Origin: Alphaproteobacteria bacterium
Lineage (GTDB): Bacteria > Pseudomonadota > Alphaproteobacteria > UBA2966
Assembly: GCA_965200265.1 (NCBI GenBank)
Contig: OZ241357.1
Coordinates: 1,731,003 to 1,795,002, forward strand
Length of the DNA: 64,000 bases
Reading direction: 5' to 3'
In this document: one piece after another, positions 52,645-64,000 of the stretch
How positions within the stretch are numbered: position 1 is the stretch's first letter
Layout of the letters: each line of letters starts with the position of its first letter
Translations under genes and position numbers: made by a program
The notes under the pieces: model-generated
What the model saw: the letters and a program-made list of their open reading frames with translations, nothing else
Told to the model about the DNA's origin: nothing
Databases searched by the model: none

Positions 52645-53556
52645 TCATCCCGGCGGACCCGTCGAGCCGTCGACCACGAGCAGGGCGAAGATCGAGAACA
52701 GGTAGACGATGGAAAATCCGAAGAGGCGGCGCGCCGAGCCCTCGTCCCGCGCGGTTCGCACCCTGATCGCGCCGGCCACGAACAGGGCGCCCAGCGCCGC
52801 CGCGCCGGCGGCGTAGACGGGCCCGGCGAAGCCGAGCACCGTCGGCATCAGGGTCACCGGCGGCAGGATCGCGCTGTAGAGCAGGATCCGGCGGCGCGTC
52901 TCCTCGAGGCCGGCCACGACCGGCAGCATGGGTATCCCGGCGCGCGCGTATTCCGCCGACCGGCAGAGGGCCAGGGCCCAGAAATGGGGCGGCGTCCACA
53001 GGAAGACGATCGCGAACAGGATCAACGGCTCGACCGCCACCTCGCCGGTCACCGCCACCCAGCCGATCAGCGGCGGAAACGCGCCGGCGGCGCCGCCGAT
53101 CACGATGTTCTGCGGCGTCCGGCGCTTGAGCCAGATCGTGTAGACGAACACGTAGAAGGCGATGGCGGCGGCGAGGAGCGCGGCCGCCGGGACGTTGACC
53201 GCGAGGCCCATCAGCGCCACCGACGCGACCGCCAGCGTCACGCCGAAGCCCAGCGCGTCGCCCCCGGCGATCCGCCCCTGGGGAACGGGCCGCGCGCGGG
53301 TGCGCTGCATGACGGCGTCGATGTCGGCGTCGTACCACATGTTGACGGCCCCCGCCGCGCCGGCCCCGACGGCGATGCAGAGCACGGCGATTCCGGCGAG
53401 CACGGGATGCAGGGCGCCGGGCGCCGCCAGCAGGCCCGCGAGGCCGGTGAACGCGACGAGCGACATGACCCGCGGCTTCAGCAGCGCCACGTAGTCCGCG
53501 GCGCCCGACTCCGACCCGGCGATCCCCGGACGGAGGTACGCGCTGCCGGCGGTCAT
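52645..53556 (-). CDS. ctaB: Protoheme IX farnesyltransferase (heme O synthase)
   Basis: [13 protein letters not shown]...[22 protein letters not shown] is the UbiA-family motif; multi-TM. Confidence 0.9.
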
Positions 53557-53595
53557 GGCCCGGTGCGCCGGTCGGCGCGGGCCTTGCCTCGCCGC

Positions 53596-56060
<2,465 letters not shown>

Positions 56061-56352
56061 CGCCAATCCCGTCTCCTCGTTGCGGGACCCCGGGCGCCGG
56101 TCCAGCCACGTGGCCGAACGGCCGCCGGTTGCCCGGACCCGGACACGATCGCCGGCACGGCGCGGCGCGGGCACGGGTCCAAGCGGGCGGTCTCCGGCCG
56201 CTTCCGCAGCGCGCCGACCCGCCGACCGGCCAGCCCGCGAATCGGCCCGGAGGGTACACCAGGGAGGGCGCCGGCGGCAAGACCGCGAAACCGAAAATCG
56301 CGTCGATCTTTCGGCGTTCCTCCGGGCGCCCGGTCCGGGCGCCCGGCCGCGG

Positions 56353-56709
56353 CTACGGAAACAGCTTGAGGGCGGCGACGATCAGGCCGCCGACGGCGAT
56401 GACCAGCCCGCCGAGGCGAAGCATCGACTTGTCCGCCACGGCGTCGATCTTCTCATCGAGACGGACGATCTTCGCATCGAGACGGGTGATCTTCGCATCG
56501 AGACGGGTTTCAAGATTGGCGACCCCGGTCTTGAGGTTGGCGATGTCGGTCTTGATATCGGCTACGTCGGCCTTGCTGGCGACGCCTTCCGCAACGGCGT
56601 CGCGGACGGCCTCGGCGTGCGCTTCGGCCTGGACGTCGTCCACACCGGCCGCTTTCAGCCGCCGCGCGAAGGCGAGCGTATCGAATCCGGGCGTCCCCGT
56701 CGCGGTCAT
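56353..56709 (-). CDS. DUF1640-like coiled-coil protein with C-terminal TM anchor (copy A)
   Basis: MTATGTPGFDTLAFARRLKAAGVDDVQAEAHAEAVRDAVAEGVASKADVADIKTDIANLKT...SMLRLGGLVIAVGGLIVAALKLFP. Confidence 0.55.
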   Translation of the reverse strand: MTATGTPGFDTLAFARRLKAAGVDDVQAEAHAEAVRDAVAEGVASKADVADIKTDIANLKTGVANLETRLDAKITRLDAKIVRLDEKIDAVADKSMLRLGGLVIAVGGLIVAALKLFP

Positions 56710-56833
56710 GGCGGCACGATAGACCGGCCCGGCCCCGGCCACAAGCGCAAGGAGAGGGCGCCGCGCCCGGTCAAGATGCAGGGCAATCGCATCCGGAAAT
56801 TCCGGGTGGCCCTGCGATAGCCGGCGGCCGCGG

Positions 56834-57148
56834 CTACGGAAACAGCTTGAGGGCGGCGACGACCAGGCCGCCGACGGCGATGACCAGCCCGCCGAGGCGA
56901 AGCATCGACTTGTCCGCCACGGCGTCGATCTTCGCATCGAGACGGGCGATCTTCGCATTGAGACGGGTTTCAAGATTGACGACCTCGGTCTTGAGATCGG
57001 CTATGTCGGCCTTGCTGGCGACGCCTTCCGCAACGGCGTCGCGGACGGCTTCGGCGTGCGCTTCGGCCTGGATTTCGTCCACACCGGCCGCTTTCAGCCG
57101 CCGCGCGAAGGCGAGCGTATCGAATCCGGGCGTCCCCGTCGCAGTCAT
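56834..57148 (-). CDS. DUF1640-like coiled-coil membrane-anchored protein (copy B)
   Basis: Same N- and C-termini as copy A with a shorter coiled-coil segment. Confidence 0.55.
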   Translation of the reverse strand: MTATGTPGFDTLAFARRLKAAGVDEIQAEAHAEAVRDAVAEGVASKADIADLKTEVVNLETRLNAKIARLDAKIDAVADKSMLRLGGLVIAVGGLVVAALKLFP

Positions 57149-57273
57149 GGCGACACGATAGACCGGCCCGGCCCCGGCCACAAGCGCAAGGAGAAGGCGC
57201 CGCGCCCGGTCAAGACGCAGGGCAACCGCATCCGGAAATTCCGGGGGGGCCTTGCGGTAGCCGGCGGCCGCGG

Positions 57274-57627
57274 CTACGGAAACAGCTTGAGGGCGGCGAC
57301 GATCAGGCCGCCGACGGCGATGACCAACCCGCCGAGGCGAAGCATCGACTTGTCCGCCACGGCGTCGATCTTCGCATCGAGACGGGCGAACTTCGCATCG
57401 AGACGGGTTTCAAGATTGGCGACCTCGATCTTGAGATTGGCGACCTCGATCTTGAGATCGGCGACATCGGTCTTGAGATCGGCGACATCGGTCTTGAGAT
57501 CGGCGATGTCGGTCTTGAGATTGGCAATGTCGGTCTTGATATCGGCTACGTCGGCCTTGCTGGCGACGCCTTCCGCAACGGCGTCGCGGACGGCTTCGGC
57601 GTGCGCTTCGGCCTGGATTTCGTCCAC
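57274..57627 (-). pseudogene. DUF1640-like copy C, 5'-truncated by a deletion between GCCGCGC direct repeats. Carries a 7x 21-bp intragenic VNTR.
   Basis: Relative to copies A and B it lacks the ATG and the first ~20 codons. An ORF remains only from an in-frame GTG (VDEIQAEAHA...). The coiled coil is expanded by (D/T)(I/V)A(D/N)LK(T/I) heptads encoded by 21-bp tandem repeats at 57400-57560. Confidence 0.45.
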
Positions 57628-57747
57628 ACCGGCCGCTTTCAGGCGCCGCGCCCGGTCAAGACGCAGGGCAATCGCATCCGGAAATTCCGGGGGGCCCTGC
57701 GACAGCCGGCGGCCGCGGCACGGTATCGAGAACGGAGCGCCCGAGAA

Positions 57748-57921
57748 TCATCCGGTCGCACGCGCCCAGGCCACCGCATCGGCCACGTCGGTCTCCGTGA
57801 TGCCGGGCCCGGCCAGCTTGGCGCGCACCGCGTCGGCGCGGTTCACGCGCACCGGAGTCAGCACGATCCGTCCGTTCTCCTCGGTCACGTCGAGATACTC
57901 GCTCCCCTCGACGGCGGACAT
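57748..57921 (-). CDS. Small ORF (57 aa) resembling the C-terminal half of a MazE/AbrB-fold protein, 2 nt downstream of the giant adhesin gene
   Basis: MSAVEGSEYLDVTEENGRIVLTPVRVNRADAVRAKLAGPGITETDVADAVAWARATG, compared with MazE ...[33 protein letters not shown]. Confidence 0.3.
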   Translation of the reverse strand: MSAVEGSEYLDVTEENGRIVLTPVRVNRADAVRAKLAGPGITETDVADAVAWARATG

Positions 57922-57923
57922 CG

Positions 57924-60900
57924 TTACCACCTCAGTCGCAGTTCGAGGCCGGCGCCGTGTTCGGGGGTGGCGGTGCCTTCCTTGCGTTCGGCCTGGAGGC
58001 CCACCGCCACGTCCGGGCCGAACGCGAACCGCGTCCCCAGGCGGTAGCGGCGCTCGCCGTCGTTCCCGTAGCCGACCCCGGCATGGGGCGTCGCCAGGCC
58101 GGACCCCTCCCAGAACCCGATCCCGTACCCCACCTCCGCCTCCAGATGCACCGTGTCGGCAGCGGCATCGGCGGTGGCGCCCGGCGACGCGCGGCCCGTC
58201 ATCCCTTCGTCCCACAGCCGCGCAAGCCCGCTCTCCGACGCCCCCCAGCGCGGCGACAGCGCCAGCGACAGGCCCCGGCCCCCGGACCCCGGCGACAGGC
58301 GCGCCGTGCCCGACACGCCCCATTCCTCCACGTCGCCCTGATGGGCCACCAGCGCCCGCCCCCGCGCCTCCACCGACAGGCCACGCGACGGCAGCGTCCA
58401 CTCCACGCCGCCGCCCAGCTCCATCCCCGCGCCCGTCTCCCCGTCGCCGCCGTCCCAGCGCGCGCCCACCTCCAGCGACGGCGTGAACGCGCCGCCGCCC
58501 GCCAGCGCCCACGTCCGCCGCGCCTCCGCCGCCAGACGCACCCGCCGCGTGTCCACCGACACCTCCGCCAGCGCCAGCCCGTTGTCGTCCACCGAATACC
58601 GCGTCGCCTCCCCCGACCCCTTCACCGACACCACCAGGCCGTTCGCCGACACCACCGGAACCGAGCCGCCCACCGCGACGCCCACGAACGCGCTGTCGCC
58701 CTTCTGAACCCCGAAACGCTCCACGAACTCCGTGTCCGCGATCTCGATCTCGCCCTCGCCGTAGCCCAGCGCACCCCACAGCCGCGAGCCGTCGGCGCCG
58801 GACCAGCCCAGATACGGATGCACCGCCGCGAGACGGCTCACGTGGACGCCCGTCACCGCCTCGTCGCCGCTGCGGTCCGTGTACTCGATCTCGCCCTCGA
58901 TCCACGACGCCGCAAGGCCGCCCCGCAGACCCTCGCCCAGCAGCGCGTCCATGCCCACGTGCGCCGCGAACAGATCGCCCGACCAGTCCAGCGACCCCTT
59001 GTCCAGCGCCAGCGAACGCCGGCTCCCGCCGCCCCACACCACCGCCGAGGAGCCGGAGCCGGAACCGCCGACGCCGCCATCGGCACCGCTGCCGGACCCG
59101 CCGCCACTGCCGCCATCGCCGCCCAGCGCCACCGCGAACGTCCGCCCCTCCACGACATCGCGCCACGTCACCCCGGACTTGTCCTGCATCCCCTCCCGCG
59201 CCTTCAGCGCCGAGGCCAGCGTGTCCGCCATCCCCGAACCCGCGCCCGAGGACTCGAGACGCCCCGTCACCGCTTCCACCACGCTCCCCCACGTCGCCCG
59301 CGACAGCTCCGGCAGAACCGACCGGTTCACCGCCGCATAGCGCGCACGCGCCTTCTTCAGGGTCGACACCACCTCGATGGTGAACTCCAGCACGTCCTGC
59401 TGTTCTGGGTCGATGTCGTCCGTCGCCGTCCAGGTGTAGCGCCTCTCCGCGAACTCCTCCGTCGGCGTCCCCGACAGAACCCGCGTCGCATCGTCGAACC
59501 TCAGCCCCGGCGGCAGGACCAGCGGCCGCGGACCCAACTCGTGGCTCGTGCTGTCGCCGCCTTGCGCCTCTCGCAGCGTCACCGGCGGATCAATGGCCTC
59601 GTCCACCGTGAACACCATCGCCGTCAGGGTGTAGTCGAACTCCGGAACCGTGTCCTTGTACCCCACCGCGAACGGCGAGAACGACGCCACGTCGGCGGCG
59701 CACACCCGTGTGCCCTCGTCGCGCGATCCCCCCGGCAGCGGCGCTCCGTCGTGCAACAGGATCAGCGTCCGGCCCCGCGCCGCCGTCCGCAGGGCGTCCG
59801 TCACCCGCAGGCACAGCCGCTGCACGGCCACCGCCGGAGAGACGTCAATGTCCACCGCCACCCGCGCCTCTTCCGGCCCAAGGCTCCACCCGCTTTCCGC
59901 CTCCGCCGCCGCGCGGCCCCCGGACAGCGCCGCCACCGTCACCGTCACCGGGCGGTCGAGATTCCGCGGCAGCTGGAACTCCACCACGTCCTCGCTAACG
60001 CTCTCCTCCACCGTCTGCGTGACGAGGTGGCCGTTCACGTTGTAGGTCGTCTCCCCCGCCGCGCCATCCGTCACGATCCCGGTATCGCCGTCCTCGTCCA
60101 CCGCCACGGTCAACGTCCCCGTCACCCCGCCGTAACCGCCGCCCGATACCGTGTGCGTCAGCGACGCCGTGTCGGCAAGGTCGTCCTCGTCCGCTTCCGC
60201 GGTCACCGTCACCGTCTGCGGCGCGTTCCAGGCCGACACCGCAAAGGTCAGACGACGGGGATCGACGCTCACATCGTCGTTGTCGCTCGTCACCGCCACC
60301 GTCACCGGCCCCGTGGGCTGCGAGGTCAGTTCCACCGTGTAGCCGGCACCGCCGCCGGCCACATCCACCGCCACCACGCCGGCGGTCGTGCCGGCGGCAA
60401 TCAACAGCAACCCCTTCTCGTCGATGTCCCTGATGGTCAGCGTCGCGGCCGTCACGGTCATGGTCATCGAATCCGCCGTGGCGCGGGAGTTCCCCGGGTT
60501 CCCCATCGCCGAAACCCTCACCATCTTGTTCGGCGTATCCACGGTGTCGTGATTCGCCGTGATCGTCACCACGCCGCCGCTCGATATGCTCCCCGCCGCG
60601 ATCGTCAGCGTCGCCGCCGTGCTCAGCGTGAAGTCGCCCGCAACCGCCGGCGACACCGGCGAAGCCGTCACCGTCACCGTGGTGTCCGCGCTCGACGGGT
60701 GCGACAGCCGCGCCGTCACCGTCGATACCCCGCCGTCCTCCGTAACCGACGACGGCGCCAGCGCCAGCGTCACCCCCGGCGCGTCGTCGTCGTCCGTCGT
60801 CGTCACGTCAACGTTCTCGTCGATGCCGTCGTAGTTGCCGTCGCCGCCGCTCATCGGGTCGAGCCGCACCTGCCACGGCACGTTGCCGTCGTCGACGTCG

Positions 60901-63900
60901 TCGTCCACCCCCGTCACCGTCACCGTCCGCGCCGCGTTCCAGTTCCCCGTCGTGAACGTCAGCGACGACGGCGAGACCGTGCCCTCACCCGTATCCCGGC
61001 TCGAAACCGCCACCGTCACCGCCGCCGACGGCCGCGTCAGCAGCGCCACCGTGAACGTCGCCGTACCTCCCGCCTCCGTCACCGTCAGCCCGGTCGCCCC
61101 CACCAGGTCGAGGCCGAACTCGTCGTCGCGGATCGTCAGCGTCGCGACCGACGGGTCCGACACCCCGTGGCCCCCCGCCGCCGTCGCCGACACGCTCACG
61201 CGCTTGTTCCCATCCGCATCGTTGTTGTCGACCCCCGTCACCGTCACCAGGCCCGCGCTCGTCGTCGATCCCGCCGCGATCGTCAGCGTGTTCCCCGTCC
61301 GCGTGAAGTTGCCCGCAACCGCCGGCGCCACCGCCGTCGTCGCCACCGTCAGCGTCGCCGCCTGCGTCGCCGGATGCGACAGCCGCGCCGTCACCGTCGA
61401 GATGCCCCCGTTCTCCGAGATCGCCGACGGGTTCAGCACCAGCGCCGCCGTCGCCGTCGCATCGTCGTCGGTGATCGTCAGCGTCACGGCCGGCGGCGCC
61501 GCCACCCCGTTGCCGCCCGCCGCCATCGCCGTCACCGTCACCTGCTTGTCCGCGTCGGTCCCGGTGTCCACGTTGTTGTCGACGCCCGTCACCGTCACCG
61601 TCCCGGCGCTGGTCGTCGACCCCGCGGCGATGGTCAGCGTCGTCGCCGTGCTCAGGGTGAAGTCGCCCGCAACCGCGTTCGTCGAGGCCACCGCCGCGGC
61701 AGCGACCGTCACCGTCGTCGCCGCGCTCGACGGACCCGACAGCGTCGCCGTCACCGACGACACCCCGCCGTTCTCCGAAATCGACGCCGGCCCCAGCACC
61801 AGCGCCACCGTCGGCAGCGTCTCGTCGTCGGTCAAGGTCAGCGCCGCGCCCGTCACCGCGCCCGCCCCCTGGCCGTTCGCCAAGGTTCCCGTCACCGTCA
61901 CGCTGCGCCCCGCGGTCCCCTGGTGGACGTCGTCGTCCACGCCCGCGACCGTCGCCGTGTCCGAGGCCGCCGTGGTGGACCCCGCGGCGATGACGATGGT
62001 GGCGTCCGTACCCGCCGTGTAGGCCCCGGAAACCGACGTCACCGTCACCGTCGACGGCTCGCTCGACGGGCCCGACAGCGTCGCCGTCACCGTCGCGATG
62101 CCGCCGTTCTCCGAAACCGACGCCGGGTTCAGCGCCAGCGTCGCCCCCGGCGCCGACTCGTCGTCCTCCAGCGTCAGCGTCGCCCCCGTCACCGTCATCG
62201 TCGTCGAATCGGCCACCGCCCGGGCGTTGGCCGCCGTCGCCGTCACCGTCGCCGTCCGGTTCGGCTCGTCCGTCGTGTTGTCCACCGCCGTCACCAGCAC
62301 CGTGTCCGTGGGCGCCGCTGTCGCCTCCGCCGGGATGACGATGGTGGCGTCCGAACCCACCGTGAAGGCCCCGGAGACCGCCGCCACCGTCAGCGTCGTC
62401 GCCGCCCCCGACCCGTGCGAAAGCCGCGCCGTCACCGTCGCCAGCCCGCCGTTCTCCGCCACCGACGACGGCGACAGCGCCATCGTCACCGTCGGCGGGC
62501 CGTCGTCGTCCGTCGTGGTCACGTCCACGTTCACGTCGTCGAGGCCGTTGTAGTTGCTGTCGCCGCTGCTCGACGTATCCAGGCGCACCTGCCACGTCAC
62601 CGTCCCGTCGTCGATGCTGTCCTGAACCCCCGTCACCGTCACCGTCTGCGCCGTGCTCCAGTCCCCCGTCGTGAAGGTCAGCGTCGGCGGCGACACCGTC
62701 CCCTCGCTCGTATCCCGGCTCGTCACCGCCACCGTCACCTCCGCTGTCGGCTGCGTGTTCAGCCGCACCGTGAAGGTGGCCGTCCCGCCCGCCTCCGTCG
62801 CCTGGCCGCTCACCGCGCTCTCCGACAGCCCGAACTCGTCGTCGCGCAGGATCAGCGTCGCGGCGGACGGGTTCGACACCCCCCGGCCCCCCGCCGCCGT
62901 CGCCGACACCGTCACCTGCCTGTTCCCCGTGGCATCGTTGTTGTCGACGCCCGTCACCGTCACCAGGCCCGTGCTCGTCGTCGCGTTCGCCGCGATGGTC
63001 AGCGTGGTGGTCGAACTCAGCGTGAAGTCCATCGCATCCGCCGGCGAAACCGCAGTCGCCGCCACCGTCAGCGTCGCCGCCTCGGTGGTCGGATGCGACA
63101 GCCGCGCCGTCACCGTCGAGACCCCGCGGTCCTCCAGAATCGTCGACGGGTCCAGCACAAGCGTCGCCGTCGCGTCGTCGTCGTTGGTCAGCGTCAGCGC
63201 GGCGAGACCCGGGTTCTGTATGCCGTTGCCGCCCGTCGCCGTCGCCGAAAGCCGCAACAGCTTGTTGGCCGCGTCCACGTTGTTGTCGACGCCCGTCACC
63301 GTCACCAGCCCCGTGCTGGTCCGCGAACCCGCCGCGATGGTCAGCGTCGTCCCCGACTGCGTGAAGTCGCCCGCCACCGCCCCCGACGACGCCACCGCCG
63401 TCACCGTCACCGTCACCGTCGTCGCCTCGCTCGACTTGCCCGAAAGCCCCGCCAGCTGCGCCGTCACCGTGGCGATGCCGCCGTTCTCCGAGATCGAACC
63501 GGAAAGGGGGTCGATCAACAGCGACGCCGTCGGCAGGTTCTCGTCGTCGGTGATCGTCAGCGACGCGCCGGTCACCGAACCCGCTCCCTGGCCGTTGGTC
63601 AGCGCCGCCGTCACCGTCGCCGAACGCCCCGCGTTCCCGTGGTGGAGGTCGTCGTCCACCACCCTGATCGTCGCCGTGTCCGTCGCGTTCGTCGTCGCAC
63701 CCGCGGCGATGACGATGGTCGCGTCCGTTCCCGCCGTGTAGGCCCCGGAGACCGCCGTCACCGTCACCGTCGACGGCTCGCTCGACGGATGCGACAAGGT
63801 CGCCGTCACCGTCGAGACGCCGCTGGGCTCCGCGATCGACGCCGGGTTCAGCGCCAGCGTCACCCCCGGCCCCGCGTCGTCGTCGGCGATCGCCAGCGTC

Positions 63901-64000
63901 ACGCCGGGCGGGTCGTTGGTCAGGTTGAGGCTGTCGGAGGCCGTTCCCGAGACCGTCACCGACTTGTTCGGCGCGTCGGTGGTGTTGTCCACCGCCGTCA
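57924..64000 (-). CDS. Giant Calx-beta-repeat adhesin with C-terminal autotransporter-type beta-barrel. 5' end beyond the window.
   Basis: More than 2,000 aa in-window. About 100-aa repeats ending ...TLTI(T/R)DDE/ATLTLEDDE (Calx-beta-like VTVTIxDDD signature), with recurring ...GLVTVTGVDNNVD.... The C-terminal ~300 aa are Gly/Ser-rich with alternating hydrophobics, ending ...GAGLELRLRW (terminal aromatic residue typical of autotransporter/OMP barrels). Confidence 0.7.
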   Translation of the reverse strand, partial: TAVDNTTDAPNKSVTVSGTASDSLNLTNDPPGVTLAIADDDAGPGVTLALNPASIAEPSGVSTVTATLSHPSSEPSTVTVTAVSGAYTAGTDATIVIAAGATTNATDTATIRVVDDDLHHGNAGRSATVTAALTNGQGAGSVTGASLTITDDENLPTASLLIDPLSGSISENGGIATVTAQLAGLSGKSSEATTVTVTVTAVASSGAVAGDFTQSGTTLTIAAGSRTSTGLVTVTGVDNNVDAANKLLRLSATATGGNGIQNPGLAALTLTNDDDATATLVLDPSTILEDRGVSTVTARLSHPTTEAATLTVAATAVSPADAMDFTLSSTTTLTIAANATTSTGLVTVTGVDNNDATGNRQVTVSATAAGGRGVSNPSAATLILRDDEFGLSESAVSGQATEAGGTATFTVRLNTQPTAEVTVAVTSRDTSEGTVSPPTLTFTTGDWSTAQTVTVTGVQDSIDDGTVTWQVRLDTSSSGDSNYNGLDDVNVDVTTTDDDGPPTVTMALSPSSVAENGGLATVTARLSHGSGAATTLTVAAVSGAFTVGSDATIVIPAEATAAPTDTVLVTAVDNTTDEPNRTATVTATAANARAVADSTTMTVTGATLTLEDDESAPGATLALNPASVSENGGIATVTATLSGPSSEPSTVTVTSVSGAYTAGTDATIVIAAGSTTAASDTATVAGVDDDVHQGTAGRSVTVTGTLANGQGAGAVTGAALTLTDDETLPTVALVLGPASISENGGVSSVTATLSGPSSAATTVTVAAAAVASTNAVAGDFTLSTATTLTIAAGSTTSAGTVTVTGVDNNVDTGTDADKQVTVTAMAAGGNGVAAPPAVTLTITDDDATATAALVLNPSAISENGGISTVTARLSHPATQAATLTVATTAVAPAVAGNFTRTGNTLTIAAGSTTSAGLVTVTGVDNNDADGNKRVSVSATAAGGHGVSDPSVATLTIRDDEFGLDLVGATGLTVTEAGGTATFTVALLTRPSAAVTVAVSSRDTGEGTVSPSSLTFTTGNWNAARTVTVTGVDDDVDDGNVPWQVRLDPMSGGDGNYDGIDENVDVTTTDDDDAPGVTLALAPSSVTEDGGVSTVTARLSHPSSADTTVTVTASPVSPAVAGDFTLSTAATLTIAAGSISSGGVVTITANHDTVDTPNKMVRVSAMGNPGNSRATADSMTMTVTAATLTIRDIDEKGLLLIAAGTTAGVVAVDVAGGGAGYTVELTSQPTGPVTVAVTSDNDDVSVDPRRLTFAVSAWNAPQTVTVTAEADEDDLADTASLTHTVSGGGYGGVTGTLTVAVDEDGDTGIVTDGAAGETTYNVNGHLVTQTVEESVSEDVVEFQLPRNLDRPVTVTVAALSGGRAAAEAESGWSLGPEEARVAVDIDVSPAVAVQRLCLRVTDALRTAARGRTLILLHDGAPLPGGSRDEGTRVCAADVASFSPFAVGYKDTVPEFDYTLTAMVFTVDEAIDPPVTLREAQGGDSTSHELGPRPLVLPPGLRFDDATRVLSGTPTEEFAERRYTWTATDDIDPEQQDVLEFTIEVVSTLKKARARYAAVNRSVLPELSRATWGSVVEAVTGRLESSGAGSGMADTLASALKAREGMQDKSGVTWRDVVEGRTFAVALGGDGGSGGGSGSGADGGVGGSGSGSSAVVWGGGSRRSLALDKGSLDWSGDLFAAHVGMDALLGEGLRGGLAASWIEGEIEYTDRSGDEAVTGVHVSRLAAVHPYLGWSGADGSRLWGALGYGEGEIEIADTEFVERFGVQKGDSAFVGVAVGGSVPVVSANGLVVSVKGSGEATRYSVDDNGLALAEVSVDTRRVRLAAEARRTWALAGGGAFTPSLEVGARWDGGDGETGAGMELGGGVEWTLPSRGLSVEARGRALVAHQGDVEEWGVSGTARLSPGSGGRGLSLALSPRWGASESGLARLWDEGMTGRASPGATADAAADTVHLEAEVGYGIGFWEGSGLATPHAGVGYGNDGERRYRLGTRFAFGPDVAVGLQAERKEGTATPEHGAGLELRLRW

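What the first reader, a model, noticed from the sequence alone, without database searches (positions are those of the whole stretch)
56353..57627. Tandem triplet of DUF1640-like membrane-anchored coiled-coil genes with intragenic VNTR and a recombination-truncated copy
Three paralogues share a conserved N-terminal domain (MTATGTPGFDTLAFARRLKAAGVD..QAEAHAEAVRDAV) and an identical C-terminal TM anchor (MLRLGGLVIAVGGLIVAALKLFP). They differ in the length of the central coiled coil, which is encoded by 21-bp tandem repeats (7 copies at 57400-57560 in copy C, fewer in A and B). Copy C lost its start codon and first ~20 codons through a deletion between GCCGCGC direct repeats. The locus is therefore actively recombining, a hallmark of contingency or variable surface-associated genes. 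It sits next to a giant adhesin.
Basis: partly seen in the sequence, partly recalled or inferred. Interest (0 to 1): 0.55.

Follow-up and report, generated by a model that had tools for sequence, protein, structure and literature searches.

The report
Tandem DUF1640 membrane-anchored coiled-coil genes
Three side-by-side copies of a small membrane-anchored coiled-coil gene from a known but functionally obscure family (the bacterial relatives of mitochondrial MCUR1/CCDC90B) differ only in the number of 21-base repeats that set stalk length; one copy is a dead remnant, and the genes are probably not a switchable surface-antigen locus.

Summary
On the minus strand lie two intact paralogues (A, 118 aa; B, 104 aa) and one 5'-truncated paralogue (C). 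All three belong to the DUF1640/CCDC90-like family: a conserved head, a V-A-S-K-A-D neck, a heptad stalk and a C-terminal membrane helix. The stalks are uninterrupted heptads (5, 7 and 10), each encoded by a 21-bp unit.

A 99-bp in-frame deletion between GCGCGGCG microhomologies removed copy C's inferred promoter, its ATG and 17 codons.

A second public contig is 99.4% identical over 6.3 kb. Within the array it differs only by one extra 21-bp unit in copy C (8 versus 7), so the repeat number does vary.

The "contingency / variable surface gene" reading is not supported:
- The repeat units are in frame.
- The proteins have no signal peptide and are tail-anchored, so they probably face the cytoplasm.
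- The only polymorphism seen lies in the dead copy.

Tandem arrays, and stalk repeats with periods of 7, 9 or 11 residues, recur across the family. Neither the cytochrome oxidase neighbour nor the autotransporter neighbour is conserved.

Verdict: an ordinary new member of a known family. Two side results: an inferred leaderless-promoter architecture, and a large expansion of the family in an uncultured alphaproteobacterial lineage.

The parts
56353..56709 (-). Copy A: intact DUF1640/CCDC90-like gene, 118 aa. Head residues 9-43, neck V-A-S-K-A-D at 43-48, 7 heptads, C-terminal membrane helix.
   Evidence: ORF and translation. Pfam PF07798 E 1.5e-7, 31.9 bits. Heptad parsing. The exact protein is also encoded on ENA contig L081. 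AF2 model helices 11-20, 25-40 and 46-116.
56834..57148 (-). Copy B: intact paralogue, 104 aa, 5 heptads. One residue differs in the membrane helix (I to V).
   Evidence: (PF07798 E 3.6e-7, 30.7 bits).
57274..57642 (-). Copy C: 5'-truncated paralogue, probably a pseudogene. Homology starts at codon 18 (L-K-A-A-G). There are 10 heptads. The only in-frame start codon is GTG at 57627, inside the head domain.
   Evidence: Alignment of the three units. Upstream in-frame translation shows no ATG, GTG or TTG before 57627.
57641..57651 (-). Junction of the 99-bp in-frame deletion in copy C, at the microhomology GCGCGGCG(C/G)CT. The deletion removed 48 bp upstream (including the inferred -35 and -10 elements) and codons 1-17.
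   Evidence: Distance between anchor sequences is 117 bp in A and B and 18 bp in C. Alignment columns 120-218.
57413..57559 (-). Type-1 21-bp tandem repeat in copy C: 7 units, each encoding one heptad T-D-[IV]-A-[DN]-L-K. Polymorphic: 8 units in contig L081.
   Evidence: TRF 7.0 copies, score 189. Unit list. A 21-bp indel at about 57540 is the only difference from L081 between 53353 and 58298.
56513..56575 (-). Type-1 21-bp repeat in copy A (3 units).
   Evidence: TRF. Unit list.
56446..56508 (-). Type-2 21-bp repeat in copy A, heptad [TAV]-R-L-D-[AE]-K-I, 3 units. The equivalent repeats have 2 units each at 56926-56967 (B) and 57366-57407 (C).
   Evidence: TRF. Unit list.
56710..56833 (-). 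Repeated upstream region of copy A with the inferred promoter: -35 TTGTGG (56739-56744), 17 nt, -10 TATCGT (56716-56721), 6 nt, ATG. Contains the 13-bp palindrome CCGGAAATTCCGG (56793-56805).
   Evidence: Sequence. Position-specific enrichment of TAnnnT at -12/-13 across the family. The generic promoter scan found nothing.
57149..57273 (-). Repeated upstream region of copy B with the same inferred promoter (-10 at 57155-57160, -35 at 57178-57183) and the same palindrome (57232-57244).
57643..57723 (-). What remains of copy C's upstream region. The palindrome (57678-57690) is retained; the -35, -10 and ATG are deleted. The left boundary of the repeated unit is at the CCGT(A)GCCGCGGCCG microhomology.
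   Evidence: Alignment. Sequence.
57748..57921 (-). Context: a 57-aa remnant of an AbrB/MazE-type antitoxin. It lacks the N-terminal half and has no toxin gene.
   Evidence: 75% identity to a full-length homologue in L008, which is followed there by a PIN-like ORF. NCBIfam gives only a weak MazE/PemI hit.
57924..63992 (-). Context: giant autotransporter-type ORF (2022 aa or more) with Calx-beta repeats.
   Evidence: PF03797 (weak) on the L081 product.
53596..56060 (-). Context: cytochrome c oxidase subunit II (55194-56060) and subunit I (53596-55197), directly downstream on the same strand.
   Evidence: Pfam COX2 and COX1 on the genes called in L081, with coordinates mapped to the window through.

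Best explanation
This is a lineage-specific tandem array of DUF1640/CCDC90-like genes, with two intact copies and one dead copy.

Architecture. Each intact protein has the family's head-neck-stalk-anchor layout. A strongly conserved two-helix head of about 45 residues (FDTLxFARRLKAAGVD..QAEAHAEAVRDA) is followed by a beta-layer-type neck (V-A-S-K-A-D). Next comes a stalk of uninterrupted heptads, then one C-terminal membrane helix and a 4-residue tail.

Topology (inferred). There is no signal peptide, and the mitochondrial homologues face the matrix. So the protein is most likely tail-anchored in the inner membrane, with stalk and head in the cytoplasm. By analogy with solved family members it is probably a trimer.

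Function (inferred). The conserved head would act as a scaffold held at a set distance from the membrane: 5 heptads in B and 7 in A, roughly 5 and 7 nm.

Origin of the array. The array arose by unequal exchange at a CCGT(A)GCCGCGGCCG microhomology. Stalk length changes by gain or loss of whole 21-bp (one-heptad) units through slippage or unequal recombination, which always preserves the reading frame and the coiled-coil register.

Expression (inferred). Each unit carries its own promoter set directly against the ATG, which implies a leaderless mRNA. A 99-bp microhomology deletion removed that promoter and the start of copy C. Copy C is therefore a recent pseudogene whose repeat tract is still drifting (7 or 8 units).

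Shown here: the anatomy, family membership, the deletion, the polymorphism, and the recurrence of arrays and repeats in relatives. Inferred: topology, oligomeric state, leaderless transcription and the scaffold role.
For: Anatomy.

Family membership:
- PF07798 gives E 1.5e-7 and 3.6e-7.
- 107 of 112 homologues match PF07798 at E 0.001 or better.
- The family profile hits PDB 6h9l (E 2.1e-9) and human CCDC90B 6h9m (E 4.6e-9), with the head motif aligned.
- The neck motif [aliphatic]-A-T-K-[polar]-[DE] at the start of the DUF1640 stalk is described in PMC4786415.
- The profile finds 7338 cluster representatives at E 0.001 or better.

Topology precedent: Put6/Put7 are matrix-facing and form hetero-oligomers (PMC7519068).

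Recurrence in relatives:
- Tandem arrays with unequal stalks occur in L019 (10 copies), Rhodovulum sp. PH10 (3), Rhodoplanes roseus (2) and L012 (3).
- 61 of 111 family genes carry in-frame tandem DNA repeats, mostly of period 21, 33 or 27 bp.

Polymorphism: L081 is 99.4% identical, and the only difference in the array is a single 21-bp unit in copy C.

Promoter: TAnnnT starts at -12 or -13 from the ATG in 42 of 90 distinct upstream regions, against 0-4 at any other offset. In 41 of those 42, TTGnnn lies 16-18 nt further upstream. Only 17 of 93 genes have a Shine-Dalgarno-like motif.
Against: - Neither window protein reaches Pfam's gathering score (31.9 and 30.7 bits against 33.5).
- Topology, trimer state and transcription start are untested.
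- Positive charges flank the membrane helix on both sides, so the positive-inside rule does not settle the orientation.
- a = I/V with d = L would by itself favour dimers.
- The promoter counts include paralogues from a few related genomes and so are not independent. More distant family members lack the motif.
- No bacterial function is known for the family, so 'scaffold' is an analogy.
- The 7-versus-8 difference rests on two assemblies whose reads I could not inspect.
Confidence: 0.72

Rival explanations
1. Contingency locus. The repeats make a surface-exposed protein vary rapidly in length or expression, to evade phage or host recognition, acting together with the neighbouring adhesin.
For: - Repeat number does differ between two near-identical contigs.
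- The array lies next to an autotransporter.
- An autotransporter homologue is also followed by a DUF1640 array in L012, and another lies 3 kb from a DUF1640 gene in L021.
Against: - The units are 21 bp and in frame, so there is no on/off switching.
- The units are imperfect (90% matches).
- There is no signal peptide and the architecture is tail-anchored; eukaryotic homologues face the matrix.
- The head is nearly invariant across paralogues and species, the opposite of an antigenically variable protein.
- The polymorphic tract is in the promoter-less copy.
- Autotransporter adjacency recurs in only 2 of the 77 other loci, both from related genomes.
Confidence: 0.07
2. Periplasmic ruler. The N-terminus is translocated and the stalk spans part of the periplasm, like Lpp or flagellar and secretion-system spacers. 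Different lengths would suit envelope structures such as the adjacent autotransporter.
For: - Stalk lengths are quantised in whole heptads: 5, 7 and 10-11.
- Charges flanking the membrane helix do not fix its orientation (sequence).
- Autotransporter synteny in L012.
Against: - There is no signal peptide or N-terminal hydrophobic segment, and translocating a hydrophilic N-terminal domain of about 95 residues without one is unusual.
- Homologues are matrix-facing.
- Most family loci have no envelope-related neighbours.
Confidence: 0.07
3. Functional link to cytochrome c oxidase. The array sits directly upstream of ctaC-ctaD on the same strand. The mitochondrial homologue MCUR1 was reported as a COX assembly factor (Paupe et al. 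2015, cited in PMC7519068), so these could be ancestral COX-assembly scaffolds.
For: Same-strand adjacency to COX2, COX1 and CtaB in the window and in L081. The COX claim for MCUR1 appears in the literature (reference list).
Against: - None of the 77 other family loci has a coxB or ctaD homologue within 6 kb.
- The yeast homologue Put6 showed no respiratory defect, and the Put6-containing complex was unaffected by loss of respiratory supercomplexes (PMC7519068).
- The family has at least 17 genes in one 3.7-Mb relative, which does not fit a dedicated COX factor.
Confidence: 0.05
4. Mobile-element cargo: a phage- or plasmid-derived small membrane protein, such as an XhlA-like lysis accessory or an MbeB-like protein. 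This would explain the copy number and the nearby toxin-antitoxin debris.
For: - PHROG 17872 (function unknown) matches full length at E 5.6e-10.
- DUF1640 genes are reported in Liberibacter prophages and on small Col plasmids (PMC5291501; PMC13516913).
- A truncated antitoxin is adjacent.
Against: - There are no phage or plasmid genes in the flanks; the array lies between an autotransporter and the cox operon.
- tblastn finds no phage record and only 4 weak plasmid hits.
- XhlA Pfam E 0.36.
- No PADLOC match.
Confidence: 0.05
5. Assembly artefact. The three copies, or the repeat count, result from mis-assembly of repetitive reads.
For: The window comes from an unknown assembly. Repeats of this kind can be collapsed or expanded.
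Against: - An independent 150-kb contig has the same three copies, with A, B and all intergenic sequence identical.
- The copies differ from each other at singleton sites.
- Similar arrays exist in cultured isolates.
Confidence: 0.02

Closest known systems
DUF1640 / CCDC90-like family (Pfam PF07798): human MCUR1 and CCDC90B, yeast Put6/Put7, and the prokaryotic homologue in PDB 6H9L (Adlakha et al. 2019, Structure; cited but not readable here)
   Same: - Head motif FDT..L...L...G.D..QAE.
- An A-T/S-K-x-D neck at the start of the stalk.
- Coiled-coil stalk and a C-terminal membrane anchor.
- Profile-level homology to 6h9l and 6h9m.
- Paralogues coexist and may co-assemble, as Put6-Put7 do.
   Different: - Much shorter (104-118 aa, against a Pfam model of 175 positions), so the score falls just under Pfam's cut-off.
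- No targeting peptide.
- The stalk is made of near-identical DNA-level heptad repeats.
- The genes are arranged as a tandem array with a pseudogene.
- The bacterial function is unknown.
Tandem DUF1640 arrays in other Alphaproteobacteria (L019 in MAG OZ241350.1, Rhodovulum sp. PH10, Rhodoplanes roseus, L012 in MAG OZ241738.1)
   Same: - Head-to-tail paralogues with nearly identical heads and anchors.
- Stalks that differ by in-frame modules of 7, 9 or 11 residues.
- An occasional disabled copy.
- In the MAG relatives (L012, L019), the promoter set against the ATG.
   Different: - The window array uses pure heptads and has the microhomology deletion; the disabled copy in L019 carries a 1-nt frameshift instead.
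- The Rhodovulum and Rhodoplanes arrays lack the promoter motif.
- L012 alternates DUF1640 with a second small membrane and coiled-coil gene that the window lacks.
Coiled-coil proteins whose length varies through in-frame tandem repeats, such as streptococcal M proteins and the stalks of trimeric autotransporter adhesins (from general knowledge, not tested here)
   Same: Repeat units equal to coiled-coil periods. Length changes by unequal recombination or slippage, with the register preserved.
   Different: Those proteins are secreted surface proteins under immune or phage selection. These lack a signal peptide and have an invariant head.
Simple-sequence contingency loci of Haemophilus and Neisseria (from general knowledge)
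   Same: Repeat-number polymorphism between close strains.
   Different: Contingency repeats are short units (1-7 bp) that shift the frame or the promoter spacing and so switch expression. Here the unit is 21 bp, in frame, and the variant tract lies in a pseudogene.

Membership tests
DUF1640 / CCDC90-like (PF07798) | Score at or above Pfam's gathering threshold | tested here: inconclusive
   A scores 31.9 bits and B 30.7 bits, against a cut-off of 33.5, with E 1.5e-7 and 3.6e-7. The proteins cover only part of the 175-position model. 107 of 112 homologues match PF07798 at E 0.001 or better.
DUF1640 / CCDC90-like (PF07798) | Sequence homology to structurally characterised members, with the head domain aligned | tested here: met
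   The profile of 112 family sequences, including A and B, hits 6h9l at E 2.1e-9 and 6h9m (CCDC90B) at E 4.6e-9. In the 6h9m alignment the FDT..L..G.D..QAE head motif is aligned; the 6h9l match covers the neck and stalk repeats.
DUF1640 / CCDC90-like (PF07798) | Beta-layer neck motif [aliphatic]-A-T-K-[polar]-[DE] at the start of the stalk (PMC4786415) | tested here: met
   V-A-S-K-A-D at residues 43-48 of A and B (S in place of T). Relatives have V-A-T-K-A-D.
DUF1640 / CCDC90-like (PF07798) | Coiled-coil stalk followed by a single C-terminal transmembrane anchor | tested here: met
   Uninterrupted heptads with I/V at position a and L at position d. AF2 gives one helix from 46 to 116. The hydrophobic segment LGGLVIAVGGLIVAAL is followed by the tail KLFP (sequence).
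DUF1640 / CCDC90-like (PF07798) | Trimeric assembly, with head and stalk on the cytoplasmic (matrix-equivalent) side | not testable with these tools
   Only monomer models are available. The topology is inferred from the lack of a signal peptide and from Put6/Put7.
DUF1640 / CCDC90-like (PF07798) | Fold similarity of the model to solved members | tested here: inconclusive
Phase-variable / contingency locus | A repeat tract whose unit changes shift the reading frame or alter promoter spacing | tested here: not met
   The unit is 21 bp, in frame, and lies inside the stalk-coding region.
Phase-variable / contingency locus | Repeat-number polymorphism among close strains | tested here: met
   7 versus 8 units in copy C between the window and L081. 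No difference in the intact copies A and B.
Phase-variable / contingency locus | A product that is surface-exposed or secreted | tested here: not met
   The N-terminus MTATGTPGFDTLAFARRLKAAG is hydrophilic with no signal sequence, and the only hydrophobic segment is at the C-terminus (sequence). This is by sequence inspection only.
XhlA-like phage lysis accessory (PF10779) | A significant match to the family profile | tested here: not met
   E 0.36, 11.5 bits, against a cut-off of 34.7.

The most novel reading that the evidence does not exclude
The stalk-length series is functional rather than mutational noise. In this reading, an uncultured alphaproteobacterial lineage has expanded DUF1640 to well over a dozen genes per 3.5-Mb genome. 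Each gene would be expressed from a leaderless promoter and would present the same invariant head at a different, heptad-quantised height above the inner membrane. Together they would form a graded set of membrane-anchored rulers or scaffolds, ancestral to mitochondrial MCUR1/CCDC90B. In this genome the set sits upstream of the cytochrome oxidase operon.
Probability: 0.1. Interest if true: 0.6.

Novelty: new member of a known kind. Interest (0 to 1): 0.3.

Why it matters
DUF1640 is a large family: 7338 cluster representatives match the profile. Its mitochondrial members (MCUR1, CCDC90B, Put6/Put7) are debated scaffolds, and its bacterial members have no known role.

This locus adds no new kind of system, but it gives a clean example of how such stalk proteins evolve:
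- Whole-heptad DNA repeats change stalk length without breaking the register.
- Whole genes duplicate in tandem together with their promoter.
- Microhomology deletions kill copies.

Two family-level observations may help anyone studying the bacterial proteins. First, repeat periods are restricted to coiled-coil-compatible lengths (7, 9 and 11 residues). Second, in the window's clade a -35/-10 promoter sits 6-7 nt from the ATG, which implies leaderless mRNAs. Neither changes current understanding.

Tried and rejected
One used the protein patterns of copy A; the other used a 27-base pattern from the intergenic region. A population-level comparison in JGI metagenomes was therefore not possible.
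- The exact-sequence cluster look-up of A, B and the 124-aa C allele found nothing. The 7-unit C product is not on record.
- I looked for mosaic or gene-conversion patterns among A, B and C. With three sequences every variable site is a singleton, so nothing can be concluded.
- I suspected a recurrent deletion at the same head position in L019. It turned out to be a 1-nt frameshift.
- A conserved link to cox genes was rejected, with 0 of 77 loci.
- The generic promoter and terminator scan found nothing. Rfam gave only chance miRNA-like hits inside the repeat tract. PADLOC gave nothing.
- The Adlakha et al. 2019 paper could not be read. Statements about the head-neck-stalk-anchor trimer therefore rest on its title, on PDB entries 6h9l and 6h9m, and on my own knowledge.
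Full report
**What is in the sequence**

The feature lies on the minus strand. Reading 5' to 3' on that strand, the order is as follows:
- a giant autotransporter-type ORF (57924-63992, 2022 aa or more, with Calx-beta repeats);
- a 57-aa ORF (57748-57921);
- copy C (57274-57642);
- copy B (56834-57148, 104 aa);
- copy A (56353-56709, 118 aa);
- cytochrome c oxidase subunits II and I (55194-56060 and 53596-55197).

The repeated unit is about 440-480 bp. It includes about 125 bp of upstream sequence as well as the gene. A 33-mer from the head-coding part occurs three times in the window, against none expected. Outside the internal repeats the copies differ only at a handful of singleton sites. 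Pairwise identity is 92-96% over all shared columns, including the misaligned repeat columns.

**Internal repeats**

TRF reports a 21-bp period with 7.0 copies at 57413-57559 in copy C (score 189, 90% matches) and 3 copies in A. It also reports a second 21-bp family with 3, 2 and 2 copies in A, B and C.

Parsed as protein, everything between the neck and the membrane helix is an unbroken run of heptads. There are 7 in A, 5 in B and 10 in C. They are of two types, T-D-[IV]-A-[DN]-L-K and [TAV]-R-L-D-[AE]-K-I, followed by a terminal D-A-V-A-D-K-S. Even the anchor is a duplicated heptad, GGLVIAV followed by GGLIVAA.

**The truncated copy**

Copy C lacks exactly 99 bp that A and B have: 48 bp upstream of the ATG plus codons 1-17. 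The breakpoints lie in GCGCGGCG(C/G)CT microhomology. The frame stays open upstream as far as the stop codon of the 57-aa ORF, but it contains no ATG, GTG or TTG before the GTG at 57627, which lies inside the head domain.

**Family**

- Pfam PF07798 (CCDC90-like, formerly DUF1640) is the top hit for A and B, at E 1.5e-7 and 3.6e-7. Both fall 1.6-2.8 bits short of the gathering score.
- The word-indexed search found 43 homologues, the best 71% identical, and most carry a precomputed PF07798 label.
- A full HMMER scan found 7338 cluster representatives at E 0.001 or better and 936 at E 1e-10 or better.
- A profile of 112 members, including A and B, hits the two solved family members. These are 6h9l (listed as 'Uncharacterized protein', E 2.1e-9) and 6h9m (human CCDC90B fused to GCN4, E 4.6e-9). 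In the 6h9m alignment the head motif FDT..L..G.D..QAE is aligned.
- 107 of the 112 members match PF07798 individually.
- The motif V-A-S-K-A-D that opens the stalk matches the beta-layer consensus [aliphatic]-A-T-K-[polar]-[DE]. Hartmann et al. describe this motif as prominent at the start of the DUF1640 stalk (PMC4786415).
- The AF2 model (pLDDT 79) has helices at 11-20, 25-40 and 46-116. Fold searches with this monomer could not separate it from generic coiled coils.

I file the genes as members of the family. The shortfall against Pfam's cut-off is noted.

**Is the repeat number really variable?**

Yes. The exact copy A protein is encoded on an ENA metagenome contig (ERZ25070167, 150 kb; locus L081). 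That contig is 99.4% identical to window 53353-59682. Every SNP and two 3-bp indels lie in the autotransporter (58299-59180). The only difference anywhere in the array, its spacers or the cox genes is one extra 21-bp unit in copy C, giving 8 units instead of 7 and an extra T-D-I-A-N-L-K heptad.

This also rules out a gross assembly artefact, because both assemblies carry the same three copies. I could not inspect reads.

**How typical is this for the family?**

Very typical.
- A profile scan of the 80 loci fetched by then (77 from one-genome-per-species contigs) finds tandem arrays elsewhere: 10 copies in L019 (MAG OZ241350.1), 3 in Rhodovulum sp. PH10, 2 in Rhodoplanes roseus DSM 5909 and 3 in L012. 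Each has near-identical heads and anchors, and stalks that differ by 4, 7, 11, 18 or 22 residues.
- One L019 copy is disabled by a 1-nt frameshift.
- Of 111 non-redundant family genes, 61 contain in-frame tandem DNA repeats. The periods are 21 bp (19 genes), 33 bp (15), 12 bp (13) and 27 bp (5), with the rest other multiples of three. The 21-, 27- and 33-bp periods correspond to coiled-coil repeats of 7, 9 and 11 residues.

Tandem duplication and stalk-length variation are therefore family properties, not a peculiarity of this locus.

**Expression signals (inferred)**

A and B have no Shine-Dalgarno-like sequence. Both have TTGTGG, then 17 nt, then TATCGT, then 6 nt, then ATG. Across the family, TAnnnT begins at -12 or -13 from the ATG in 42 of 90 distinct upstream regions, against 0-4 at any other offset from -60 to -6. 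In 41 of those 42, TTGnnn lies 16-18 nt further upstream. Only 17 of 93 genes have a Shine-Dalgarno-like motif.

The signal comes mainly from the uncultured alphaproteobacterial clade closest to the window. More distant members lack it. This geometry implies leaderless mRNAs.

The 99-bp deletion in C removes the -35, the -10 and the ATG together, so C is most probably silent. The generic promoter and terminator scan found nothing in this 69% G+C stretch.

**Topology and function (inferred)**

The N-terminus is hydrophilic, and the only hydrophobic segment is the C-terminal helix, followed by K-L-F-P. That makes this a tail-anchored protein. The soluble domains of the yeast homologues Put6/Put7 face the mitochondrial matrix, and the two proteins form a hetero-oligomeric complex (PMC7519068).

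By homology the bacterial head and stalk should be cytoplasmic, probably as trimers. The nearly invariant head points to a conserved binding partner. The stalk would set its distance from the membrane at about 1 nm per heptad. No bacterial function is known.

**Why the contingency reading fails**

- In-frame 21-bp units cannot switch expression.
- The variable part is a structural spacer, while the presumed interaction surface (the head) is invariant.
- The protein is unlikely to be exposed on the surface.
- The only polymorphism observed is in the dead copy, as expected for neutral slippage.

**Neighbours**

- No other family locus has cox genes within 6 kb, so the attractive parallel with MCUR1 as a reported COX assembly factor (reference list) has no comparative support.
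- An autotransporter homologue directly precedes a DUF1640 array in L012, and another lies 3 kb from a DUF1640 gene in L021. Both come from closely related MAG genomes, so shared ancestry is the simpler explanation.
- The 57-aa ORF is a 5'-truncated AbrB/MazE-type antitoxin. Its full-length homologue in L008 is followed by a PIN-like ORF.
- No defence-system match was found, no phage records, and only four weak plasmid hits.

**Verdict**

The evolutionary mechanism (unequal exchange, slippage and microhomology deletion) is well supported, including a direct 7-versus-8 repeat polymorphism. The biological interpretation as a contingency or surface locus is not supported. This is a new member of a known family with unknown bacterial function, of modest interest.

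Noticed in passing
window 57748-57921 (-); L008 3118-3340 and the ORF that follows: The 57-aa ORF between the autotransporter and copy C is a 5'-truncated AbrB/MazE-type antitoxin. It is 75% identical to the C-terminal part of a full-length homologue in L008, which is followed by an overlapping PIN-like ORF (MTPPRLVLDTNVLV...). The window has no toxin gene. Its TGA stop is in the same frame as the open frame that runs into copy C.
   Followed up: partly
L012 6378-8391; L001 8291-8967; L002 8291-8620: A second small-protein family alternates with DUF1640 genes in L012 and follows one in L001. It has an N-terminal membrane helix (MTGFETASLAIAAANA...) and a charged coiled coil with RRHDEAM-type repeats. 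Two contigs from one sample carry 2 copies versus 1 (L001 versus L002). The family is absent from the window and has no PADLOC match.
   Followed up: partly
upstream of family genes in L001-L031 and others; window 56716-56744 and 57155-57183: Conserved promoter geometry: TTGCGG/C, then 16-18 nt, then TAnnnT, then 6-7 nt, then ATG. It is present in 41-42 of 90 distinct upstream regions of family genes and implies leaderless mRNAs in the uncultured alphaproteobacterial clade related to the window.
   Followed up: partly
window 56793-56805, 57232-57244, 57678-57690: A perfect 13-bp palindrome, CCGGAAATTCCGG, is conserved in the upstream region of all three units, including the truncated one. It could be a regulator binding site.
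   Followed up: no
window 58299-59180 (autotransporter) compared with L081: All 14 SNPs and two 3-bp indels that separate the window from the 99.4%-identical contig fall within about 900 bp of the autotransporter gene, partly in a Gly/Ser-rich tract. The 4.9 kb from the cox genes up to the 21-bp indel is identical. In L081 the autotransporter product is called at 1013 aa, against an ORF of 2022 aa or more here.
   Followed up: no
window 56321-56346: Two tandem copies of the self-complementary 13-mer TCCGGGCGCCCGG lie just downstream of copy A's stop codon. They may form a terminator-like hairpin between the array and the cox operon, though the terminator scan did not call it.
   Followed up: no
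window 56373-56419, 56854-56900, 57294-57340: The membrane-anchor coding region itself has a 21-bp periodicity (GGLVIAV followed by GGLIVAA). The heptad repeat, with glycines seven residues apart, therefore continues into the membrane helix.
   Followed up: no
L016-L041 (OZ251449.1 and relatives): The family is strongly expanded in some uncultured alphaproteobacterial MAG chromosomes of about 3.5 Mb.
   Followed up: partly
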